This document shows positions 56,682-64,000 of a DNA stretch of 64,000 nt, piece after piece. Origin of the DNA: Candidatus Methanoculleus thermohydrogenotrophicum (GTDB lineage: Archaea > Halobacteriota > Methanomicrobia > Methanomicrobiales > Methanoculleaceae); NCBI GenBank assembly GCA_001512375.1, contig LFRN01000139.1, positions 4-64,003 of the forward strand. The letters run 5' to 3'. The notes under the pieces were generated by a model. That model worked only from the letters and a program-made list of their open reading frames with translations. It searched no databases and was not told where the DNA came from. How positions within the stretch are numbered: position 1 is the first letter of the stretch; each line of letters begins with the position of its first letter. Both the position numbers and the translations under genes were made by a program.

Positions 56682-56719
56682 AATCTCTCTATAGTCTGAA
56701 CTCTGATTTTACTGTTTCT

Positions 56720-58192
56720 GTGACTGCTCCCCCTCCTCTCGTCGGGAGCATCCCGGGATACTACTGCACCTTTTGAGATTGCAAGCCCCAATCTCATGAT
56801 GTTGAACGCCCGCAGTCTGATCGCGGTCCATCGCGAGCCCGCAGTGTGGACAGGAGTGGGGCCGGTCAGAAAGCGTCTTTTTGACGATCATACCACATCG
56901 GGAACACTGCTGTGATGTATTCCCGGGGTTCACCAGGATCACACAAGAACCAGCCTCTTCCGCTTTGTTCTCTGTGATCGTGATGAACTGGTTCCAGGCC
57001 ACATCGGCAGTACTCTTTGCCAGATGATGGTTTTTATGCATATTCTTGATCTTCAGAGTGAGCAAAATTGTTGGCGTTCCGTTCATGGATGCGTGCGACA
57101 ACCGTTCAGGAGTGCCTTTCTCCGTTTTTGAAAGTTTCCTCTGCGCCTTCGCAAGCGCTTTCTCGTCGGTGCGGAAGAACCGGGGGTTCTCGATTCTTCT
57201 CTCCGTTCGATAAAGTAGCAAAGACCCCGACCACGGTATCTTTCTCTCATGCAGGAGAGGGTTCATACTCGACCGGGAAACAGGCATACCACTTTCCGGT
57301 TGCAGTGCGCTGAATCGTAAGAGTCTTAATCTTACCCTCTATTGGGCGATGAAGAACGATCGGGATATCACCAATCTTTGATGCGGAGAGGTGCGTGCTG
57401 GCATCATTGGGTGAAAGCCCGACCGGGGATACGCCGACCGGGGATACGTGATGCTGTCATACCGCCCCTTCCCCTTGAACCGGGGATACCCGGGATTCTC
57501 CCTGGCCTTCACCCGCCGGAAGAAGGCTTTGAAGGCAAGATCAACGCGTATCTGGACATTCTGCAAGACCTGAGAATAGACCGTGGAGAGTTCAGGACGT
57601 TCTTTTTCCAGAGCGGAATCTGACGTTTCGATTCATAGCAGGAGACCTGTTTCTGTTCATTCTCCCACGCATCCTTTCGCATCGCAAGCGTCTCGTTATA
57701 GACCCAATCGACATATCTCCAGCGTCTGCTCCATCTGAGAGACCTGGGATTTGGTCGGGTAGAGTCGATAGGATACGCTTTCATCTGCATGGTCACATCA
57801 CTTTCTAAGTCTCGATATACTTCTGAATGACCTCTTTTGGCGTATCCCCGCACGTTCCAACATAATAGGATGGGTTCCAGAGATGGCCTTTCCCCCAAAC
57901 ACGTTTCGCAAAGACGGATACCGTCTGAAGAGTTTCCTGGCAGTGATCCCCTTCATGATCTTAACAATGGTAGCAGGAGCAAATTCTGGATGGGCGGCGA
58001 TAAAGACTCAAGCAACATCGCCGTTCAGAACCTTCCGGCGGTGTTTCACCGACCATACGAAGTGATAATTCACGTTGTATCCGCACCCTCTTGCACTTAT
58101 CAAATGACCCCGCTTAACCGTTCTACAATGTTATATGCACCATGTGGTCATAATTTTCTGTCGACGGGCTGTATCCCGGCGGGGGTTAGCCC
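56720..58192 (-). mobile_element. Degraded IS200/IS605 element (tnpA + tnpB), copy B, related to copy A
   Basis: Long near-identical stretches with 24436-25938; right end GGGGAGCAGTCAC at 56720; left-end hairpin partly deleted near 58167-58192. Confidence 0.9.
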
Positions 58193-58570
58193 CATCTTGA
58201 TCCTGGAAAAAGATATGGGTGGTGAGGGCGTCCGGATACCCGCCGGCGTGGTCGTCTACCACAGACCGGGAACCCTGCCCCGCCCGGGGTCTTCGTCGAT
58301 CACGACCTCTCGCAAGCACCATCCCCACAATGATATAAAGGTGAGAGAACACGTGAATATACAAGGACGGATCACCCTCCCCGGGGCTGCCCCGGTACCA
58401 CCGGTCTCCCGGGGTTTTTGAGACGATACAGGGATCTCAATCACCCTCCCCCCTGCCGGCAGAACCAGGATCCGGTCGCCCGGGGAGGAGAACCACGAGC
58501 GCCAGGTGCCCGGGGGGCCTCGCAGGCCTGCCAGACCATCGCGCCTGGATCGACTTTGGGGGGTTTTTCT

Positions 58571-59635
58571 GTGGACTCACGGCATCATGAGAACGACGGG
58601 ATCTCCGGGCTCATCTCCCTGCTGAGAGAGCGACGGGGAGTGTTGATGGTAGGAGCAGGGAGCAGCGCCATCGTCGGGTATCCGGGCTGGCGAGACCTGA
58701 TCACCAGTCTGAAGAAGAAGTTTGCACCGGATCTCCCAGAACCTGCCTCTGGTGACTACCTGGTCTACTCCGACCTGATAAAGGAGAGCATCGTCAGCTC
58801 CGGAAGAATAGGCGAGTACCACAAGTTCCTCGACAGAACCTTTGAACCGCACAGGAATCGCGAGAACTACACCGATTTTCACTCGGCCCTGATCAGACTG
58901 GGGTTTCGCGGTCTGGTCACCACAAACTACGACAAAGTCCTTGAGTTTGCCGCCGGGGCGGTCAACAATGGCAGGGATTACCGGCCGTGCGAATCGATCG
59001 ACCTCTGTAACCGGCACAGACAATACCGCGTGTTTGAGTTCTTACGCTCACTCTCGCCAGAGAACCTCTATACCAGCGTCCTGCACCTGCACGGCTGCCA
59101 CGACAACGCCCGGGAGATCATCCTGACCCGGGGAGATTACCTGGACAAGTACGGGATGAGAGACCCTGAAAGGGGTCCATCGCCCCGTCCGGGCAGGATC
59201 CTGGATTCGTTCCACAGAAAGGTGATCTGGTCGTTGCTGGTGATGCATCCCCTGGTGTTCGTCGGTTTTGGCATGAACGACCCGTTCTTCATGGATATGC
59301 TCCGGATCGTCCAGCACGACTTCTCCCTGGATGCCGACCCGGTGCACTTCGCGATAATGCGCTACACCACCGATGACGAACGCCGGGCGATCGAGAGCGA
59401 ACTCAGAGGAAACGGCGTCCAGCCGATCTTTTATTACGCGCCCCGGGATCAGAACGGCGTCGCCGACCACCGGGGGCTCCAGAACATGATCTTTGACCTC
59501 CAGAACATCCTTGCGCGGGATCAGCGCAGACCTGCAGAGCCAGAGGCCGGGCAGGGAGACCTGCTCGAGATCCCCGCAGAGGCAGCAGACCTGCCCTCGC
59601 TTGATGAGGTGAACAGGAGGACCCTGGGGTTGTAA
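58571..59635 (+). CDS. SIR2-like (SIR2_2) NADase-domain protein
   Basis: VGAGSS, VTTNYD, HLHG and LVFVGFGMNDP motifs; the GTG start is approximate. Confidence 0.88.
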   Translation: MDSRHHENDGISGLISLLRERRGVLMVGAGSSAIVGYPGWRDLITSLKKKFAPDLPEPASGDYLVYSDLIKESIVSSGRIGEYHKFLDRTFEPHRNRENYTDFHSALIRLGFRGLVTTNYDKVLEFAAGAVNNGRDYRPCESIDLCNRHRQYRVFEFLRSLSPENLYTSVLHLHGCHDNAREIILTRGDYLDKYGMRDPERGPSPRPGRILDSFHRKVIWSLLVMHPLVFVGFGMNDPFFMDMLRIVQHDFSLDADPVHFAIMRYTTDDERRAIESELRGNGVQPIFYYAPRDQNGVADHRGLQNMIFDLQNILARDQRRPAEPEAGQGDLLEIPAEAADLPSLDEVNRRTLGL

Positions 59636-62600
59636 TGATGGAGATCAAGCGCCATGAGATGGCTGATGCGTTCCAGAGGTTTGCCCGGGCAGGCAGCGGT
59701 ATCGTGGTCGGACCGCCGGGCGTCGGGAAGACGCACCTCCTGAAGACGGCCTGCGCCGCTTTCCATGACGAGGGCATCCCTTTCCTCTACCTCCCGCTCG
59801 ACCGGCTCGGGGGCGACGCCGCACAGGATCCCGGGGACGAACTGGGGCTGGGATGCCCGCTCACCACCTACCTGCAGGCGCAGAAAACCTGCAGGAGCGA
59901 CCGTCCCGGGATCCTGATCATCGACGCGTTTGATGCCACACGCTCAGAGAACCAGCGGAAGCACCTCCTGGCCCTCATCTCCCGGGTCAGAAGCAGGTTC
60001 GGGGGAACCTGGAACGTCATCCTCAGCGCCCGCACCTACGACGCCCGGCATTCAGGCCTGCTCCAGACCCTCTTCCCGCCCGGAGACGGGGATCCCCCGG
60101 ACTACCAGGTGCCGGGCATCGCCTGCCGGCACTTCGCGGTCCCCCGCCTCACCGGGAGCGAACTGCAGGCGGCGATCGAGAGCAACCTCGGCATGCGGGC
60201 GGCGGTGAGCGGCGCACCCGGGGAGTTTCAGGAACTCCTGCGAATACCGTTCAACCTGGTCCTGCTTGAGAGACTCATCGACCACGACCCCGGGATCCTC
60301 GGGTCCACGCCGATCCGCACAGAGACCGAACTCCTGGACCTCGTCTGGGATCGGCTGGTCCTGGCAGGTGACCAGCGGGAAGAGCGCCGGGCCCTGCTTA
60401 CAAGACTGACCCGCAGGATGGTGGAGCAGCACACCCTCTCTCTGCGCAGGGAGGAGGTGGGCGGGACCGAAGGAGTGGATGACCTCCTGGATGCGGGGGT
60501 CCTCATCGACGCATCGCTGACCGGGCAGCGGGTGGCCTACGCCCACCCGATCCTGTTTGACCACGCGGTGAGCACCTTCCTGATCGGGGCCGGACCACGG
60601 GGGGTGGTTGAGTTCATCGCCGAGGAGCCGGCGCGGGGTCTCTTCCTGTGGCCTGGCCTCTACCACTACTTTACCAGGTTGTGGCTGAAAGAGCCGGACA
60701 CGTTCTGGGAGGTCTTCTGGCAGCTCCAGGAGGAACCAGATCCCGGCACCCGGTTATTCGGGCGGCTCCTCTCGACGAGCGTCCTTGTGCGGGAGGCGCG
60801 GAGCATGGACCAGGTATTGCCCCTGCTCACCGCTGACCCCCACGCGATCCTGCAGACCCTGCAGGCCCTCCGGGTCTCTCAGGGTGGGCCGGACGCGCTC
60901 TGGGCAGGGTTCCTGAGAGCGCTCGTCGATCGGATGGATGAGACCTTTGCCCGGGAGGTTGCCATCGTCACCGCCGGGATCGTTGCCCGGGCTGAGAACG
61001 ACGACCCCGGGCAGGTTCTCCCGGTCTGCGGCGAGATCAGCCGTACGTTGCTCGCGTGGGTCCTGGAACACCGCAACGGTTCGCAGGCGGCCGATTCCCT
61101 TGGGGCAGGCTACGCTGTGCCGCTCGTGGCCAGGACGTATGCGACAGACCCGGAACGGTCGCGAGCACTGCTTGAGGTGGTGGTGCACAAGGAAGACCTT
61201 CCGCCCCGGTATCTTGCCGCGCTCGCCGACCACGTCGCGAGGATCTGGCCGCATGACCCGGATCTGGCCGCCCTCATCTCCCGGGTTGTGTGGACCCCGG
61301 GGGGCGAGGATGAGGGGGTCTGCGGGTGCACAGGGGACCGGCAGGACCTGCGGATGTGCCGGTGCAGGCTCATGAAGTCTGCCCCTGACTTCCTCAGGGA
61401 CGAACCGGAGGTGGCGACCAGGGCGATGGTCGAGTGCCTGAACCGGTATATCATCGAGAATTATCTCGGGGATGAGGCAGAGGGTGCCGGGGAAGAGTTC
61501 CGGTTCCGTGGCGGGACTGCCCGTTACGTCCCTGACGGCAGTCACATCTGGGGCGATGAGCGGGGGGAGGTGGTGCAGATGGCTGATACCCTCACCGGGT
61601 TCATCGGCGATCTCGCCTCTTCAGAGAGGGGGCGTGCAGAGATCCCGGGGATCCTGGATATCTTCCAGGAGCACGCCCGGGCGGCGTATCTCTGGCGGCG
61701 GCTCATCATCCTTGCCACGCACCATCCGGAGGTCCTTGCAGAGCCCCTCTTTGACCTCTGTGTTGCGCCGCCGGTCATGGAACATGACGAGACAGGGGAC
61801 GTTTTGATGGATCTTCTGGCGGTAGCTGCACCGTTCTATACCGATGAGCAGGTGCACCAGATCGAGGAGGCCATCCTGGAGATGCCCGGCGGGGGAGAGG
61901 GGGATCCGGACTGCTCCATGCGCCGCCGGGACCGTCTGCTCACCAGGATCCCCCCTGATCGGTTGCGAAGCGACAAGGCCCGTGAGATCAGAGCGGCCAT
62001 GACGGCAGACTACCTGGCCGCGCTCGAAAGCCCGCTCTCCTGCGCCTGCGAGGATGACCGGCCCGGACCGCCGCAGGCCGACACGGCGGCGGCAGAACCA
62101 GAACGGTATCAGGCTCTGCTGAAGTTCACAAGACCGCTGGATGCGTTCAGGGAAGAGTGGCGGGATAGGGATCCCACCCCGGAGAGCATCTCCCGGGTTC
62201 TTCCGGTTGCGCGGGGGCTGTGGGAGGAGGTAGACGGCGCAGGTGAACCGCACGCGGCTGCGTGGACGAGCCTGGCCTCATCGCTTGCCGTGATGAGCAG
62301 GGGGGTTCGGGACCCGCAGAGCGATGCGTTCCGGTTCTGCCGGAACGTTCTCCTGCGGTGCGCAACCCTGGATCTGGTGGCTGAACCCGGGGCTTTCCGG
62401 TCGTCTGCGCCGCGGGAGGAGGCGGCGAGCGGACTGGTCGCGCTTGCGGCGCATGGGCCGGACCCGGCGATCCTGGCTGCGATCGAGCGCTTATCGCGGG
62501 ATCCGGCCGTCTCTGTCCGCTACCGGACCATGCAGAACCTCTCTGTGCTCCACCGGCGGTCTCCAGAGACCTTCTGGCGGATCGTGGAAGAACGATGCGA

Positions 62601-63498
62601 GAACGAGCAGGAGCGGGCGGTGCTGAAGGCTCTCTGTTACAACCTGGAGGATCTCATCTCCCATGACAGAGAGCGGGTGGAACGCGCGCTGGAAGTCCTC
62701 GTCAGGAGGGTTATCATACCAGACGACCTGGGCGACCCGCTGGAACCCCTGATCCACCTCCTGGTGCGCCTCGATCTCATCGACCAGGATGCCCGGGCCG
62801 GCAGGGTGACAGAGCGGTTCCTGGCCGAGCCTTCCCGATACGCGGGCTCGCTCCTCTGCGCAACCTCTGCAGCGCTCTCTCTCCTGCGGTCCTCCGGAGG
62901 CGGATGCACCGACCGGGTAGTGGGGTGGCTTGAGCGGGCGGTTGCCGCGGTTGCTGACGGTGTCCGGGCGGTTTTACCGCCGCCCGGGTGCGGCCCGATC
63001 CAGGATGAGCGTGTCAGGGTCAGCCTGCGGTCTCTCTACGAGACGATCGACAGGATCGTCCTGCACCTCGGGGCTATCCTCGATGAGACCCCGGACCCGG
63101 CGGGCGCATCCCCGGCGTACCGGCAGAAGGGTGCCTTTTACTTCACGGTGAAGCCCCTGCTTGAGAAGATATCCTCGTTTGCGCAGGACCCGGAGAACCG
63201 TCTCCTCTTCGCGCCAACGGCGCCCTGGTTTGTGCGGCTCCTCAACTCTGTTCTTGCCTACGACCCCGAAGGGGTCATCCGTATGGCGGCAGACCTCGCC
63301 TGGGCGAGCAGACCGGCCGGGTGTCATCCTGACCTGCTCGCCTCTGACGATCTTGTGTCCCTGGTGGAGACGGCCCTTGCCGACCACCCCAGCACGGTGG
63401 CCGCCGGGGACCTCCTCCGGCTCCTGGACCTCTTTGCGGAGGGCCAGGACCCCCGGGCTCTCCGGCGGGTATGGCGGCTGGATGAGGTGTATGGATGA
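59635..63498 (+). CDS. Large STAND/NACHT-like P-loop NTPase with a helical-repeat C-terminus (Avs-like)
   Basis: Walker A GPPGVGKT near residue 26, Walker B ILIIDAFD, sensor ILSARTYD, LLRIPFNL, H(P)ILFD winged-helix motif, then about 900 aa of helical/HEAT-like sequence. Confidence 0.8.
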   Translation: MMEIKRHEMADAFQRFARAGSGIVVGPPGVGKTHLLKTACAAFHDEGIPFLYLPLDRLGGDAAQDPGDELGLGCPLTTYLQAQKTCRSDRPGILIIDAFDATRSENQRKHLLALISRVRSRFGGTWNVILSARTYDARHSGLLQTLFPPGDGDPPDYQVPGIACRHFAVPRLTGSELQAAIESNLGMRAAVSGAPGEFQELLRIPFNLVLLERLIDHDPGILGSTPIRTETELLDLVWDRLVLAGDQREERRALLTRLTRRMVEQHTLSLRREEVGGTEGVDDLLDAGVLIDASLTGQRVAYAHPILFDHAVSTFLIGAGPRGVVEFIAEEPARGLFLWPGLYHYFTRLWLKEPDTFWEVFWQLQEEPDPGTRLFGRLLSTSVLVREARSMDQVLPLLTADPHAILQTLQALRVSQGGPDALWAGFLRALVDRMDETFAREVAIVTAGIVARAENDDPGQVLPVCGEISRTLLAWVLEHRNGSQAADSLGAGYAVPLVARTYATDPERSRALLEVVVHKEDLPPRYLAALADHVARIWPHDPDLAALISRVVWTPGGEDEGVCGCTGDRQDLRMCRCRLMKSAPDFLRDEPEVATRAMVECLNRYIIENYLGDEAEGAGEEFRFRGGTARYVPDGSHIWGDERGEVVQMADTLTGFIGDLASSERGRAEIPGILDIFQEHARAAYLWRRLIILATHHPEVLAEPLFDLCVAPPVMEHDETGDVLMDLLAVAAPFYTDEQVHQIEEAILEMPGGGEGDPDCSMRRRDRLLTRIPPDRLRSDKAREIRAAMTADYLAALESPLSCACEDDRPGPPQADTAAAEPERYQALLKFTRPLDAFREEWRDRDPTPESISRVLPVARGLWEEVDGAGEPHAAAWTSLASSLAVMSRGVRDPQSDAFRFCRNVLLRCATLDLVAEPGAFRSSAPREEAASGLVALAAHGPDPAILAAIERLSRDPAVSVRYRTMQNLSVLHRRSPETFWRIVEERCENEQERAVLKALCYNLEDLISHDRERVERALEVLVRRVIIPDDLGDPLEPLIHLLVRLDLIDQDARAGRVTERFLAEPSRYAGSLLCATSAALSLLRSSGGGCTDRVVGWLERAVAAVADGVRAVLPPPGCGPIQDERVRVSLRSLYETIDRIVLHLGAILDETPDPAGASPAYRQKGAFYFTVKPLLEKISSFAQDPENRLLFAPTAPWFVRLLNSVLAYDPEGVIRMAADLAWASRPAGCHPDLLASDDLVSLVETALADHPSTVAAGDLLRLLDLFAEGQDPRALRRVWRLDEVYG

Positions 63499-63947
63499 AT
63501 TGTCCTCCCGGGGGCAGGGGAGACCCGGGTATCAGGCGCCCTTCCTTCCTCTGTGAAGAAGCGGGCGGGGTCCCACCGGTGACCTCTCGGTGAAGATGGG
63601 GGGGGATCCCGGCACCCTTGCTTGTGGGCGGGGGGTCCCGCCCTGAGCCTGGATTTCGCCGGCAGTGGTGAGTGGGGGGAGGAGATCTCATCGGTTGGGG
63701 AAGTCCCAATGGGGGAGTCTCCCTCCTGTATTCCACTCTGTCTCACATCTATCCGCCCCGAGAATACGAGATACCCCATACATTCGACATTCCCAGTTGA
63801 AGAACTCCAGGGTGACCTCGGTTATTGTGAAATACCGGTCTGCAAAGTTTTTTCACCGCGTTCCCCATCAATGATCGGGTAGAACTCTAAGGGGGTTATA
63901 CTTCCATAGTGCAGAGTGGACGATGCTGTCGCAAAATAATAGTTCTG

Positions 63948-64000
63948 GTGACTGCTCCCCCGATTGAAATCGGGGGCATCCAGGGTTTTTCAGCCCAGAG
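63948..64000 (-). mobile_element. Right end of another IS200/IS605 element that probably continues beyond the window
   Basis: GTGACTGCTCCCCCGATT-GAAATCGGGGGCATCC hairpin, the same end motif as at 56720. Confidence 0.7.

What the first reader, a model, noticed from the sequence alone, without database searches (positions are those of the whole stretch)
58571..63498. Split SIR2 + effector-less Avs-like STAND NTPase: candidate two-component archaeal antiviral NADase system
Seen: a stand-alone SIR2 protein with intact GAG, TTNYD and HLHG motifs is translationally coupled (TAATG stop/start overlap at 59633-59637) to a 1287-aa STAND NTPase. The Walker A of the NTPase lies about 26 residues from the N-terminus, leaving no room for an effector domain. 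The pair sits between IS605 relics. Established: Avs/AVAST STAND receptors typically carry the effector (nuclease, SIR2, protease) fused at the N-terminus and oligomerise on phage proteins, and SIR2 effectors deplete NAD+. Inference: here the effector is encoded in trans and recruited to the NTPase oligomer, possibly via the SIR2 C-terminal tail (an acidic/Pro linker then LPSLDEVNRRTLGL). The NTPase C-terminus (LLDLFAEG...VWRLDEVYG) recalls Avs2-type proteins; that is from memory and unverified.
Basis: partly seen in the sequence, partly recalled or inferred. Interest (0 to 1): 0.85.

Follow-up and report, generated by a model that had tools for sequence, protein, structure and literature searches.

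The report
Split SIR2 plus STAND antiviral gene pair
A biogas-reactor methanogen carries a two-gene cassette, an NAD-destroying SIR2 enzyme overlapping an NLR-like ATPase sensor, that is conserved as a split pair across archaea and many bacterial phyla and is most likely an untested antiviral suicide system of a known general kind.

Summary
A 354-aa SIR2_2 protein with its catalytic motifs intact (58571-59635) overlaps by TAATG a 1287-aa P-loop NTPase (59635-63498) whose Walker A lies at residues 26-33.

The NTPase folds as NBD-HD-WHD followed by an all-helical HEAT-like solenoid. Its best structural matches are Avs4 and animal NLRs. Its only sequence link to a solved structure is a distant, profile-level match to SeAvs7.

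The split is not a recent frameshift. Every effector-less homologue I could inspect, down to 25% identity, has the same SIR2 gene directly upstream, usually overlapping. This holds in Methanosarcina, Methanofollis, Terriglobia, Poribacteria, Gemmatimonadota and others. No conserved third gene was found.

A minority of relatives carry fused N-terminal effectors instead: a SMEK nuclease, a trypsin-like protease or a PNP-like domain. One archaeal relative has a CBS-TIR gene in place of SIR2.

SIR2 ends in a conserved short helix after a variable linker. Complex prediction gave only weak support for binding.

Not supported: the resemblance to Avs2, and the idea that the system is specific to archaea.

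PADLOC already lists the NTPase family as the untested candidate PDC-M54A. This scan found the same pair earlier in a Poribacteria genome (e1-781686).

Verdict: a real, widespread, untested two-gene variant of Avs-type immunity, of moderate interest.

The parts
58333..58339 (+). TATA-box-like ATATAAA upstream of the pair; possible archaeal promoter (hint only).
   Evidence: Sequence read. RNA-library contigs from three studies begin at 58346, 58370 (adapter directly before) and 58444.
58571..59635 (+). SIR2_2-family protein, 354 aa; predicted NADase effector. GAG is at residues 28-30, the catalytic Asn is N119 (TTNYD) and the catalytic His is H174 (HLHG).
   Evidence: Pfam PF13289 scores E 1.3e-19. 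The motif residues are invariant in 57 homologues. The nearest solved relatives are KomC and ThsA.
59591..59632 (+). SIR2 C-terminal tail LPSLDEVNRRTLGL (residues 341-354). It follows an acidic/Pro linker and is a conserved terminal helix motif, the candidate docking peptide. Its last codons also cover the ribosome-binding region of the NTPase gene.
   Evidence: The motif [LI]-[DS]-x-[ILVM]-[NT]-[KR]-[KR]-[MT]-L-[EG]-[LR] (or N-K-I-T-G-G) sits at the extreme C-terminus in most of 57 homologues. It is absent from the SIR2 partners of SMEK-fused NTPases.
59633..59637 (+). TAATG stop/start overlap; translational coupling.
   Evidence: Overlaps of 1-11 nt or gaps of a few bases occur at the same junction in other loci.
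59635..60582 (+). STAND NTPase module of the 1287-aa protein: NBD (about residues 1-170), helical domain (about 174-245) and winged helix (about 248-316). Key residues are Walker A 26-33 (nt 59710-59733), Walker B D97/D100, R133 and H304.
   Evidence: AF2 model, pLDDT 89.6. Foldseek top hits are Avs4, NLRP, NLRC4, NOD2 and Avs3. In the profile alignment to SeAvs7, R133 pairs with R395 and H304 with H545 (PMC13581612).
60583..63498 (+). All-alpha HEAT/ARM-like solenoid with one beta-hairpin (residues 620-631); presumed ligand sensor. It ends in the near-invariant tail W-R-L-D-E (residues 1280-1284).
   Evidence: AF2 model of residues 600-1287, pLDDT 88.9. Only generic HEAT-repeat matches were found.
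56709..57898 (-). Broken TnpB (IS200/IS605-type) in two out-of-frame pieces; flank, not part of the system.
63948..64000 (+). Multi-copy hairpin repeat at which the contig ends; flank.
   Evidence: RNA and DNA contigs of other copies join here (table 7).

Best explanation
This is a two-gene, NLR-type antiviral (abortive-infection) module, and the proposed mechanism has five steps.

1. The 1287-aa protein is a STAND NTPase. At rest it is held in a closed, ADP-bound state. (Inferred from SeAvs7.)
2. Its HEAT-like C-terminal solenoid binds a protein of an infecting virus or mobile element. (Inferred.)
3. Binding opens the NBD-HD-WHD switch, lets ATP replace ADP and drives oligomerisation. (Inferred from Avs3/4/5/7.)
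4. The separately encoded SIR2 is made in fixed proportion through translational coupling. It rides on the NTPase, probably tethered by its conserved C-terminal helix. It is thereby brought into an active multimer. (Inferred.)
5. Active SIR2 hydrolyses NAD+ and stops the infected cell. (Inferred.)

**Shown here:**
- the gene pair, its overlap and the intact catalytic and nucleotide-binding residues;
- the STAND fold;
- deep conservation of the split arrangement across two domains of life;
- replacement of SIR2 by other effectors, either fused to the NTPase or encoded in trans.

**Inferred only:** the trigger, the binding between the two proteins, NADase activity and protection.
For: **Fold and active site**
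- The model of residues 1-640 has pLDDT 89.6 and shows NBD-HD-WHD.
- The best Foldseek matches are Avs4 (8dgf, E 4.5e-9), NLRPs, NLRC4, NOD2 and Avs3.
- A profile of 26 homologues matches apo SeAvs7 (9N00) at E 5.9e-11. Invariant R133 and H304 align to SeAvs7 R395 (ATP gamma-phosphate contact) and H545 (ADP beta-phosphate contact) (PMC13581612, section 10).

**The split pair is ancestral and conserved**
- A SIR2 of the same clade lies directly upstream in 16 loci with effector-less NTPases, at 25-86% identity.
- These include Methanosarcina sp. Mfa9, Methanofollis, Thermodesulfovibrionales, Terriglobia, Bryobacteraceae, Gemmatimonadota and Latescibacteria.
- Only these two genes are shared between loci.

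**Effector modularity**
- About 10 of the 150 best representatives carry an N-terminal addition instead: Trypsin_2, PNP_UDP_1, SMEK_N or an unknown domain.
- One archaeon of the same order has an overlapping CBS-TIR gene in the SIR2 position.

**SIR2 looks active**
- G28, G30, S32, T117, N119, H172, H174, G175 and D237 are invariant.
- All 57 homologues match the SIR2 domains of defence NADases (ThsA, LmuA, Dsr1/2) in PADLOC.

**Defence-like context and spread**
- Neighbours include toxin-antitoxin genes, HEPN/MNT, a Type ISP restriction enzyme, AbiU2 and DruA.
- The NTPase was found in 2 of 150 other genomes of the order and in 0 of 27 of the genus.
- The NTPase matches PADLOC defence candidate PDC-M54A at E 3.5e-114.

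**Tether**
- A conserved terminal helix follows a variable linker.
- Complex prediction of SIR2 with NTPase residues 1-640 gave weak support: score 0.40, best of 3 controls 0.00.
- In the tool's calibration the mark was reached by 58 of 80 solved complexes and 2 of 110 mismatched pairs. At 0.60 or under it was reached by only 7 of those 80, and by both of the mismatches that passed.
- The three runs agree in at least 61% of contacts, and the partner's pLDDT is at least 73.

**Presence in RNA libraries**
- Contigs from metatranscriptome libraries of four studies bridge the gene junction. This is a hint of co-transcription, not proof.
Against: - No experiment exists for this pair or for PDC-M54.
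- The trigger is unknown. The sensor resembles no characterised Avs sensor, only generic HEAT repeats.
- Binding support is weak and no interface was returned.
- The last three or four tail residues overlap the Shine-Dalgarno region (GGAG or GGAGG) of the next gene, so part of the tail conservation may act at the nucleotide level. One locus keeps MLEL without GGAG, which argues for selection on the protein.
- SMEK-fused relatives keep a tail-less SIR2. The tail therefore cannot be the only mode of coupling.
- The contig ends 500 bases downstream, so a further gene in this genome cannot be excluded. None is conserved elsewhere.
- RNA-library contigs may include DNA carry-over.
Confidence: 0.7

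Rival explanations
1. Guard-and-release instead of recruit-and-activate. SIR2 is intrinsically active and the NTPase holds it inactive, much like an antitoxin. Sensing of the trigger, or destruction of the NTPase by a virus, frees SIR2.
For: Tight translational coupling gives fixed stoichiometry, as in toxin-antitoxin pairs. In apo SeAvs7 the effector is sequestered against the NBD and the sensor C-lobe (PMC13581612, section 10). The weakly supported interaction would fit this reading too.
Against: Characterised SIR2 effectors on STAND scaffolds are switched on by assembly; EfAvs5 filaments are an example (PMC11897194). Relatives with fused protease or nuclease effectors fit activation by induced proximity. 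SIR2 is encoded first, not after a neutralising partner.
Confidence: 0.15
2. SIR2 does not act by bulk NAD+ depletion. Instead it modifies a target by ADP-ribosylation or deacylation, or it makes a signalling nucleotide, with the STAND protein directing it.
For: Sequence alone cannot tell a SIR2 hydrolase from a transferase. The closest solved relative, KomC, works inside a nucleotide-signalling system. The CBS-TIR substitute in L034 carries a nucleotide-binding CBS pair.
Against: All PADLOC matches are to SIR2 domains of NAD-depleting defence proteins: ThsA, Dsr1/2 and LmuA-SIR2. No downstream receptor or second effector gene is conserved.
Confidence: 0.08
3. The pair is not immunity at all. 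It is a housekeeping regulatory pair: a protein deacylase plus a STAND-type signalling ATPase of the MalT or AfsR sort.
For: Many STAND clades are not defence-related (PMC13581612, section 5). NCBI annotates one SIR2 homologue as an NAD-dependent protein deacylase. The GC content of the pair is like that of the host.
Against: There is no DNA-binding or output domain. Distribution is patchy: 0 of 27 genomes of the genus. The neighbourhoods are defence islands. Relatives carry suicide-type effectors. The NTPase matches a PADLOC defence candidate.
Confidence: 0.04
4. The split is a recent accident: a frameshifted SIR2-STAND fusion or a decaying pseudogene stranded between mobile elements.
For: Broken TnpB lies upstream and a repeat lies downstream.
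Against: Both ORFs are intact. The split is conserved down to 25% identity in two domains of life. No fused form of this SIR2 clade was found. All catalytic residues are kept. The locus is present in RNA libraries.
Confidence: 0.02

Closest known systems
PADLOC candidate system PDC-M54 (component PDC-M54A; untested 'phage defence candidate')
   Same: The NTPase matches profile PDLC04700 at E 3.5e-114 over its whole length. All homologues tested match it as well.
   Different: The match starts at profile position 302. Canonical members, such as the 1670-aa P0068, carry an extra N-terminal domain of about 300 aa with no Pfam match, and they have no SIR2 neighbour. No SIR2 of this clade matches a PDC-M54B model. 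No paper in the searched library mentions PDC-M54.
Avs7 (SeAvs7, PDB 9N00/9N01/9YIX; Lee et al., Nature 2026, PMC13581612)
   Same: It is the only solved protein found by sequence: profile E 5.9e-11 over the NBD, the HD/WHD and one sensor repeat. The Walker A Lys, Arg395 and His545 equivalents are conserved. Like this family, Avs7 combines many alternative effectors with a helical-repeat sensor.
   Different: Single-sequence searches find nothing, so this is a separate family. SeAvs7 has a fused Cap4 nuclease. Its bilobed sensor is shared with Dsr1, whereas this sensor matches no Dsr1 profile. The trigger here is unknown; for Avs7 it is the major capsid protein.
Avs5 / AVAST type 5 (SIR2-STAND; EfAvs5, PMC11897194; PMC12931631)
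   Same: The same logic applies: a SIR2 NADase effector governed by a STAND NTPase with a C-terminal sensor.
   Different: In Avs5 the SIR2 is fused to the N-terminus; here it is a separate, translationally coupled protein with its own C-terminal tail. No PADLOC Avs profile matches either protein.
Avs2-trypsin-MBL operon (bioRxiv 10.64898/2026.08.25.746987)
   Same: It is an Avs-type system in which a second, separately purified operon protein (MBL) acts with the STAND receptor. It is therefore a precedent for multi-gene Avs systems.
   Different: There the STAND protein still carries a fused trypsin effector that cleaves MBL. Here the STAND protein has no effector of its own, and the coupling is presumably non-covalent docking.
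EAD / Death-like-domain coupled NTPase conflict systems (Kaur et al., eLife 2020 PMC7159879 and 2021 PMC8195603)
   Same: This is the published principle that effectors encoded by separate genes are recruited to STAND or other NTPases. The same effector repertoire appears there: SIR2, TIR, PNP, trypsin and REase.
   Different: No EAD or Death-like domain is present on either protein. The candidate tether is a single helix of about 12 residues. The only related signal is a weak bDLD3 hit in the linker of a SMEK-fused relative.
Dsr1/Dsr2, Thoeris ThsA and SIR2-HerA
   Same: The SIR2 domain is homologous: PADLOC ThsA E 6e-14, Dsr1 E 4e-10; NCBIfam Dsr1 E 2.5e-8.
   Different: There is no SLOG domain and no ThsB, so it is not Thoeris. 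There is no fused long sensor, so it is not Dsr. The partner is a STAND NTPase, not HerA.

Membership tests
STAND NTPase (NACHT/Avs-like) | P-loop NBD with Walker A and Walker B | tested here: met
   GPPGVGKT is at residues 26-33 and the hhhhD Walker B at D97/D100. G26, G29, G31, K32, D97 and D100 are invariant in 26 and in 68 homologues.
STAND NTPase (NACHT/Avs-like) | NBD - helical domain - winged-helix tripartite module | tested here: met
   AF2 model with pLDDT 89.6. Foldseek top hits are Avs4, NLRP2/3/9, NLRC4, NOD2, Avs3 and SAMD9.
STAND NTPase (NACHT/Avs-like) | Conserved sensor Arg and WHD His that read the ATP/ADP state | tested here: met
   Invariant R133 and H304 align to SeAvs7 R395 and H545 (PMC13581612, section 10).
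STAND NTPase (NACHT/Avs-like) | Large C-terminal repeat sensor | tested here: met
   Residues from about 320 to 1287 form an all-alpha solenoid with HEAT/ARM matches.
STAND NTPase (NACHT/Avs-like) | Ligand-induced oligomerisation | not testable with these tools
   Needs biochemistry or cryo-EM.
Avs7 | Sequence membership in the family of SeAvs7 | tested here: not met
   There is only a profile-level hit, E 5.9e-11, with domain i-E-values of 0.38, 2.7e-4 and 6.2. phmmer with P0002 and with P0068 finds nothing.
Avs7 | Bilobed sensor shared with Dsr1 | tested here: not met
   No Dsr1 profile of PADLOC or NCBIfam matches P0002 at E up to 1. 9N00 post-dates the Foldseek library, so the folds could not be compared directly.
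Avs5 (SIR2-STAND) | SIR2 fused N-terminally to the STAND module | tested here: not met
   The two are separate ORFs. No long protein carries this SIR2 clade. No Avs profile hit was found.
Avs2 | Avs2-type NTPase and sensor | tested here: not met
   No Avs2 model among the PADLOC hits. The sensor gives only generic HEAT matches.
PADLOC PDC-M54 | PDC-M54A profile match | tested here: met
   E 3.5e-114, protein residues 3-1286 against profile positions 302-1656 of 1657.
PADLOC PDC-M54 | N-terminal domain of about 300 aa found in canonical PDC-M54A | tested here: not met
   It is absent here. It is present in P0068 and P0070 and is unrelated to SIR2.
PADLOC PDC-M54 | Presence of the partner PDC-M54B | tested here: inconclusive
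   No PDC-M54B hit for P0001 or for 57 SIR2 homologues. I could not establish what PDC-M54B is, and the contig ends 500 bases downstream.
Defence-type SIR2 NADase (Pfam SIR2_2) | Domain match above the curated threshold | tested here: met
   PF13289 scores 71.1 bits against a cut-off of 24.5.
Defence-type SIR2 NADase (Pfam SIR2_2) | GxG NAD-binding loop, catalytic Asn (TTNYD) and catalytic His (HLHG) | tested here: met
   G28, G30, S32, T117, N119, H172, H174 and G175 are invariant in 57 sequences. TTNYD aligns to KomC TTNYD.
Defence-type SIR2 NADase (Pfam SIR2_2) | NAD+ hydrolysis | not testable with these tools
   Needs an enzyme assay.
Thoeris (ThsA/ThsB) | SLOG domain on ThsA and a TIR ThsB partner | tested here: not met
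   The ThsA profile is matched only over its SIR2 part, positions 10-232 of 478. There is no TIR gene in the locus.
EAD/Death-like coupled conflict systems | Matching adaptor domains on effector and NTPase | tested here: not met
   No EAD or bDLD Pfam hit on P0001 or P0002.

The most novel reading that the evidence does not exclude
The SIR2 C-terminal helix, after its flexible linker, is a dedicated docking peptide that takes the place of the covalent effector-NBD link of ordinary Avs proteins. This would be a minimal coupling mode, free of adaptor domains. It would let one STAND sensor family exchange NAD-consuming effectors in trans, SIR2 in most lineages and CBS-TIR in one archaeon. In methanogens the sensor would recognise a conserved protein of archaeal viruses, making this one of the first NLR-type pattern-recognition systems open to study in Archaea; a cultured Methanosarcina carries it.
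Probability: 0.3. Interest if true: 0.65.

Novelty: new variant of a known kind. Interest (0 to 1): 0.5.

Why it matters
Avs/NLR-like receptors are usually described as single polypeptides with a fused effector. Here a large family does otherwise. It has 1407 representative clusters at E up to 1e-3 and 564 at E up to 1e-30, and its default state is a bare sensor-switch with the SIR2 effector on a separate, translationally coupled protein.

If the docking model holds, it shows how effectors can be exchanged without rebuilding the receptor. It would also offer a simple system for asking how STAND oligomerisation switches on a free-standing NADase.

The family reaches methanogenic archaea, including a cultured Methanosarcina with a complete genome. 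The locus is also present in metatranscriptome libraries from biogas reactors. It could therefore serve as an entry point to NLR-type immunity against archaeal viruses, whose triggers are unknown.

Set against this, the general logic of STAND plus SIR2 with NAD+ depletion is well established. The NTPase family is already a listed, though untested, PADLOC candidate.

Tried and rejected
1. **Avs2 likeness of the C-terminus.** No Avs model matched. Foldseek on the modelled sensor gave only generic HEAT/ARM proteins such as CAND1, the PP2A A subunit and importins. The idea is rejected.
2. **Dsr1-type sensor.** I tested this because the SIR2 resembles that of Dsr1 and because Avs7 shares its sensor with Dsr1. 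No Dsr1 profile hits the NTPase.
3. **Fused SIR2-NTPase forms.** A search of longer proteins found a single 767-aa protein at E 1.5e-10 and no SIR2-STAND fusion. None of the N-terminal additions in the representative search is a SIR2. That tool warns that finding none among long proteins is weak evidence.
4. **A conserved third gene.** All-against-all comparison of flanking ORFs in 19 loci found only the two genes, plus antisense shadow ORFs inside them.
5. **N-terminal domain of canonical PDC-M54A.** It has no Pfam match and no likeness to SIR2. It remains unidentified.
6. **Placing the family in the 589 STAND clades of Lee et al. 2026.** The supplementary tables are not held as text.
7. **Base composition.** The pair has 58-67% GC, like its surroundings, which says nothing about transfer.
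8. **Sigma-70 promoter and terminator scan.** Counts were at chance level, and the scan does not suit an archaeon.
9. **The 194-aa ORF at 57837-58421 (+).** It has no family match and lies antisense to the TnpB relic. I treat it as spurious.
10. **RNA evidence.** These are contigs only, so they give no strand, level or proven transcript ends.
11. **Interface from the complex prediction.** None was returned because the support was weak. The C-terminal half of the NTPase was not tested for binding.


Full report
**1. The observation**

The window is contig C233 of a 2.15-Mb MAG in 287 contigs, 89% complete. Every public run that holds the locus comes from an anaerobic digester or biogas fermenter.

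On the plus strand, an ORF from GTG 58571 to TAA 59633-59635 encodes 354 aa. Gene calls in other assemblies for a 99%-identical protein use the same start codon. The protein contains MVGAGSS, VTTNYD and LHLHG, and it matches Pfam SIR2_2 at E 1.3e-19.

The stop shares one base with the ATG of a 1287-aa ORF, 59635-63498, giving TAATG at 59633-59637. That protein has GPPGVGKT at residues 26-33 and nothing but one short helix before it.

Upstream lies a TnpB gene broken into two out-of-frame pieces. The last 53 bases of the window are a hairpin-bearing repeat found at 22 places in the assembly, mostly near contig ends.

**2. What the NTPase is**

Pfam gives only sub-threshold AAA, NACHT and nSTAND3 hits at the N-terminus.

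An AlphaFold2 model of residues 1-640, built on 68 homologues, has mean pLDDT 89.6 and pTM 0.86. It shows a P-loop domain, a helical domain, a winged helix and then helical repeats. Foldseek ranks Avs4 first (8dgf, E 4.5e-9), followed by NLRP2/3/7/9/14, NLRC4, NOD2, Avs3 and SAMD9. This is the STAND/NLR architecture.

A profile of 26 homologues finds one solved protein by sequence, apo SeAvs7 (9N00), at E 5.9e-11. In that alignment the invariant R133 and H304 pair with SeAvs7 R395 and H545. Lee et al. (Nature 2026, PMC13581612, section 10) identify these as the contacts to the ATP gamma-phosphate and the ADP beta-phosphate. Single-sequence searches find nothing, so this family is distinct from Avs7 and only distantly related to it.

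Residues 600-1287 model with pLDDT 88.9 as an all-alpha solenoid. Only generic HEAT/ARM proteins resemble it. No Avs1-5 or Dsr1 profile matches, so the remembered likeness to Avs2 is not supported.

**3. What the family looks like**

PADLOC matches the NTPase to candidate PDC-M54A at E 3.5e-114, but only from profile position 302 onward. Canonical members of 1620-1670 aa carry an extra N-terminal domain with no Pfam match and no likeness to SIR2.

An exhaustive search of 1.84 billion cluster representatives with residues 1-900 found 1407 relatives at E up to 1e-3 and 564 at E up to 1e-30. Among the best 150, nearly all full-length proteins start at the same point as this one. About ten carry N-terminal additions. 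These additions are Trypsin_2, PNP_UDP_1, SMEK_N or unidentified. A paper on short Argonautes describes SMEK as a nuclease domain (PMC10810196). This variety of suicide-type effectors is the signature of Avs-like defence receptors.

**4. The split is the rule, not an accident**

I inspected the gene upstream of effector-less homologues wherever DNA or gene calls were available.

- A SIR2 of the same clade lies immediately upstream in all of the following: the window; an 86% relative; Methanofollis (52-55%); Thermodesulfovibrionales (37%); Methanosarcina sp. Mfa9 (35%, complete genome); and Terriglobia, Bryobacteraceae, Gemmatimonadota, Latescibacteria, Korobacteraceae and an unidentified bacterium.
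- The same holds for four metagenomic relatives at only 25-28% identity.
- The junction overlaps by 1-11 nt or leaves a gap of a few bases.
- In Korobacteraceae the SIR2 is in two pieces.

All-against-all comparison of the flanks shows no other shared gene. A search of longer proteins for fused forms of this SIR2 found none.

Two further variants are informative.

- In one archaeon of the same order (27% identity), the overlapping upstream gene encodes CBS domains plus a TIR domain. TIR_2 scores E 1.8e-5, just under Pfam's cut-off. This is a different NAD-consuming effector in the same position.
- SMEK-fused relatives occur both with an upstream SIR2 and without one.

**5. The SIR2**

All 57 aligned homologues are 311-400 aa long. 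They keep G28, G30, S32, T117, N119, H172, H174, G175 and D237.

In PADLOC they match only at the level of the SIR2 domain: ThsA, LmuA-SIR2, Dsr1/2 and PDC-S25. None matches a PDC-M54 component. The nearest solved relatives are the NADases KomC and ThsA.

After the catalytic domain comes a linker of variable length and composition. The chain then ends in a short conserved motif: L-D-E-I/V-N-K/R-K/R-M/T-L-E/G-L/R in most sequences, N-K-I-T-G-G in a subgroup, and a W-x(4)-N/K-K type in more distant lineages.

One caveat applies. The last three or four codons coincide with the GGAG or GGAGG ribosome-binding site of the NTPase gene. One locus keeps M-L-E-L without GGAG, and the conserved part extends about seven residues further upstream.

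The SIR2 partners of SMEK-fused NTPases lack this tail.

Complex prediction of SIR2 with NTPase residues 1-640 gave weak support.

- The score was 0.40 and the best of three controls scored 0.00.
- In calibration the mark was reached by 58 of 80 solved complexes and 2 of 110 mismatched pairs.
- At 0.60 or under it was reached by only 7 of those 80, and by both mismatches that passed.
- The runs agree in at least 61% of contacts, and the partner's pLDDT is at least 73.
- No interface was reported.

**6. Context and expression**

Neighbourhoods differ between genomes and are rich in defence and toxin-antitoxin genes. They include ParE, HepT/MNT, PIN/VapB, PemK, HigB, AbiU2, a Type ISP restriction enzyme and DruA.

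The NTPase was found in 2 of 150 other genomes sampled from the order and in none of 27 from the genus.

Six metatranscriptome runs hold 98-100% of the sampled words. In four studies, contigs from these RNA libraries bridge the SIR2/NTPase junction. Three of them start at 58346, 58370 (adapter directly before) and 58444. Two end at 63920-63921 with adapter read-through. A TATA-like ATATAAA lies at 58333-58339. This is a hint of a 5.5-kb bicistronic transcript, not a demonstration, because contigs carry no strand information and RNA libraries can contain DNA.

**7. Mechanism**

By analogy with SeAvs7 (PMC13581612) and EfAvs5 (PMC11897194), the most likely course is as follows.

1. The solenoid binds a viral protein.
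2. The closed ADP state opens and ATP binds.
3. The NTPase oligomerises.
4. The SIR2 molecules tethered to it are brought together and activated.
5. NAD+ is destroyed and infection aborts.

Steps 1 to 5 are inferred. What is shown is the parts list, the intact active sites, the fold, the conserved coupling and the effector swaps.

The main rival is a guard model, in which the NTPase restrains an intrinsically active SIR2.

**8. Comparison and novelty**

- The logic is that of Avs5, but the effector is a separate protein.
- Multi-gene Avs systems exist, for example Avs2-trypsin-MBL (bioRxiv 10.64898/2026.08.25.746987).
- Effectors recruited in trans through adaptor domains are in print (Kaur et al., PMC7159879 and PMC8195603). 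No such adaptor is present here.
- The NTPase family is listed in PADLOC as an untested candidate, in its fused form. I found no paper on PDC-M54 and none on this SIR2-STAND pair.
- This scan had already reported the same pair in a Poribacteria genome (e1-781686). My results agree with that report. They add the archaeal members, the CBS-TIR swap, the tail analysis, the link to SeAvs7 and the RNA-library evidence.

I class the finding as a new variant of a known kind, of moderate interest.

Noticed in passing
L034:4692-6155 (minus strand), from genome G071 of the same order: A 27%-identical effector-less NTPase homologue has an overlapping upstream gene that encodes two CBS domains plus a TIR_2 domain instead of SIR2. 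This is a trans effector swap between two NAD-consuming enzymes, with a possible nucleotide-sensing CBS module.
   Followed up: partly
L012, L015, L017, L021 (Poribacteria loci): SMEK_N (nuclease)-fused NTPases of this family occur both with an upstream SIR2 and without one. Where SIR2 is present it lacks the conserved C-terminal tail. This suggests a second coupling mode or dual effectors. A weak bDLD3 (Death-like) hit lies between SMEK_N and the Walker A in L021.
   Followed up: partly
window 59591-59632 and 63472-63495: Both proteins end with a similar motif. SIR2 ends ...SLDEVNRRTLGL. The NTPase ends ...VWRLDEVYG, with W1280, R1281 and L1282 near-invariant across the family. Whether the two tails compete for one site is unknown. 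In SeAvs7 the C-terminal helix takes part in releasing autoinhibition (PMC13581612, section 10).
   Followed up: no
window 58346-63971: Metatranscriptome contigs of four biogas studies cover just the two-gene unit. They start at 58346, 58370 and 58444 and end at 63920/63921 with adapter, downstream of a TATA-like ATATAAA at 58333-58339. This would imply a 5' leader of about 130-220 nt before the GTG start.
   Followed up: partly
window 63948-64000: A 53-base repeat with a CCCCCG-ATTGAAAT-CGGGGG hairpin is present at 22 places in the MAG, mostly 70-480 bases from contig ends. It is the likely terminus of an abundant mobile element that fragments the assembly. Its family was not determined.
   Followed up: partly
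window 56709-57898 (minus strand): A TnpB (IS200/IS605-type) gene is broken into two out-of-frame fragments directly upstream of the pair. The 194-aa plus-strand ORF at 57837-58421 that overlaps it has no family match and is probably spurious.
   Followed up: partly
L010:7001-12013 (P0068) and P0070, P0216, P0198: Canonical PADLOC PDC-M54A proteins carry an N-terminal domain of about 300 aa with no Pfam match and no SIR2 neighbour. This is an unidentified, presumably effector, domain. In L010 the gene sits between two IS66-DruA repeats.
   Followed up: no
SIR2 homologues P0237, P0241, P0249, P0250, P0252, P0262, P0264, P0268: A subgroup of the SIR2 partners ends in N-K/R-I-T-G-G, sometimes with one to three further residues. 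The codons ACC GGA GGN would form a perfect GGAGG ribosome-binding site for the next gene. This shows how translational coupling may shape the protein's terminus.
   Followed up: no
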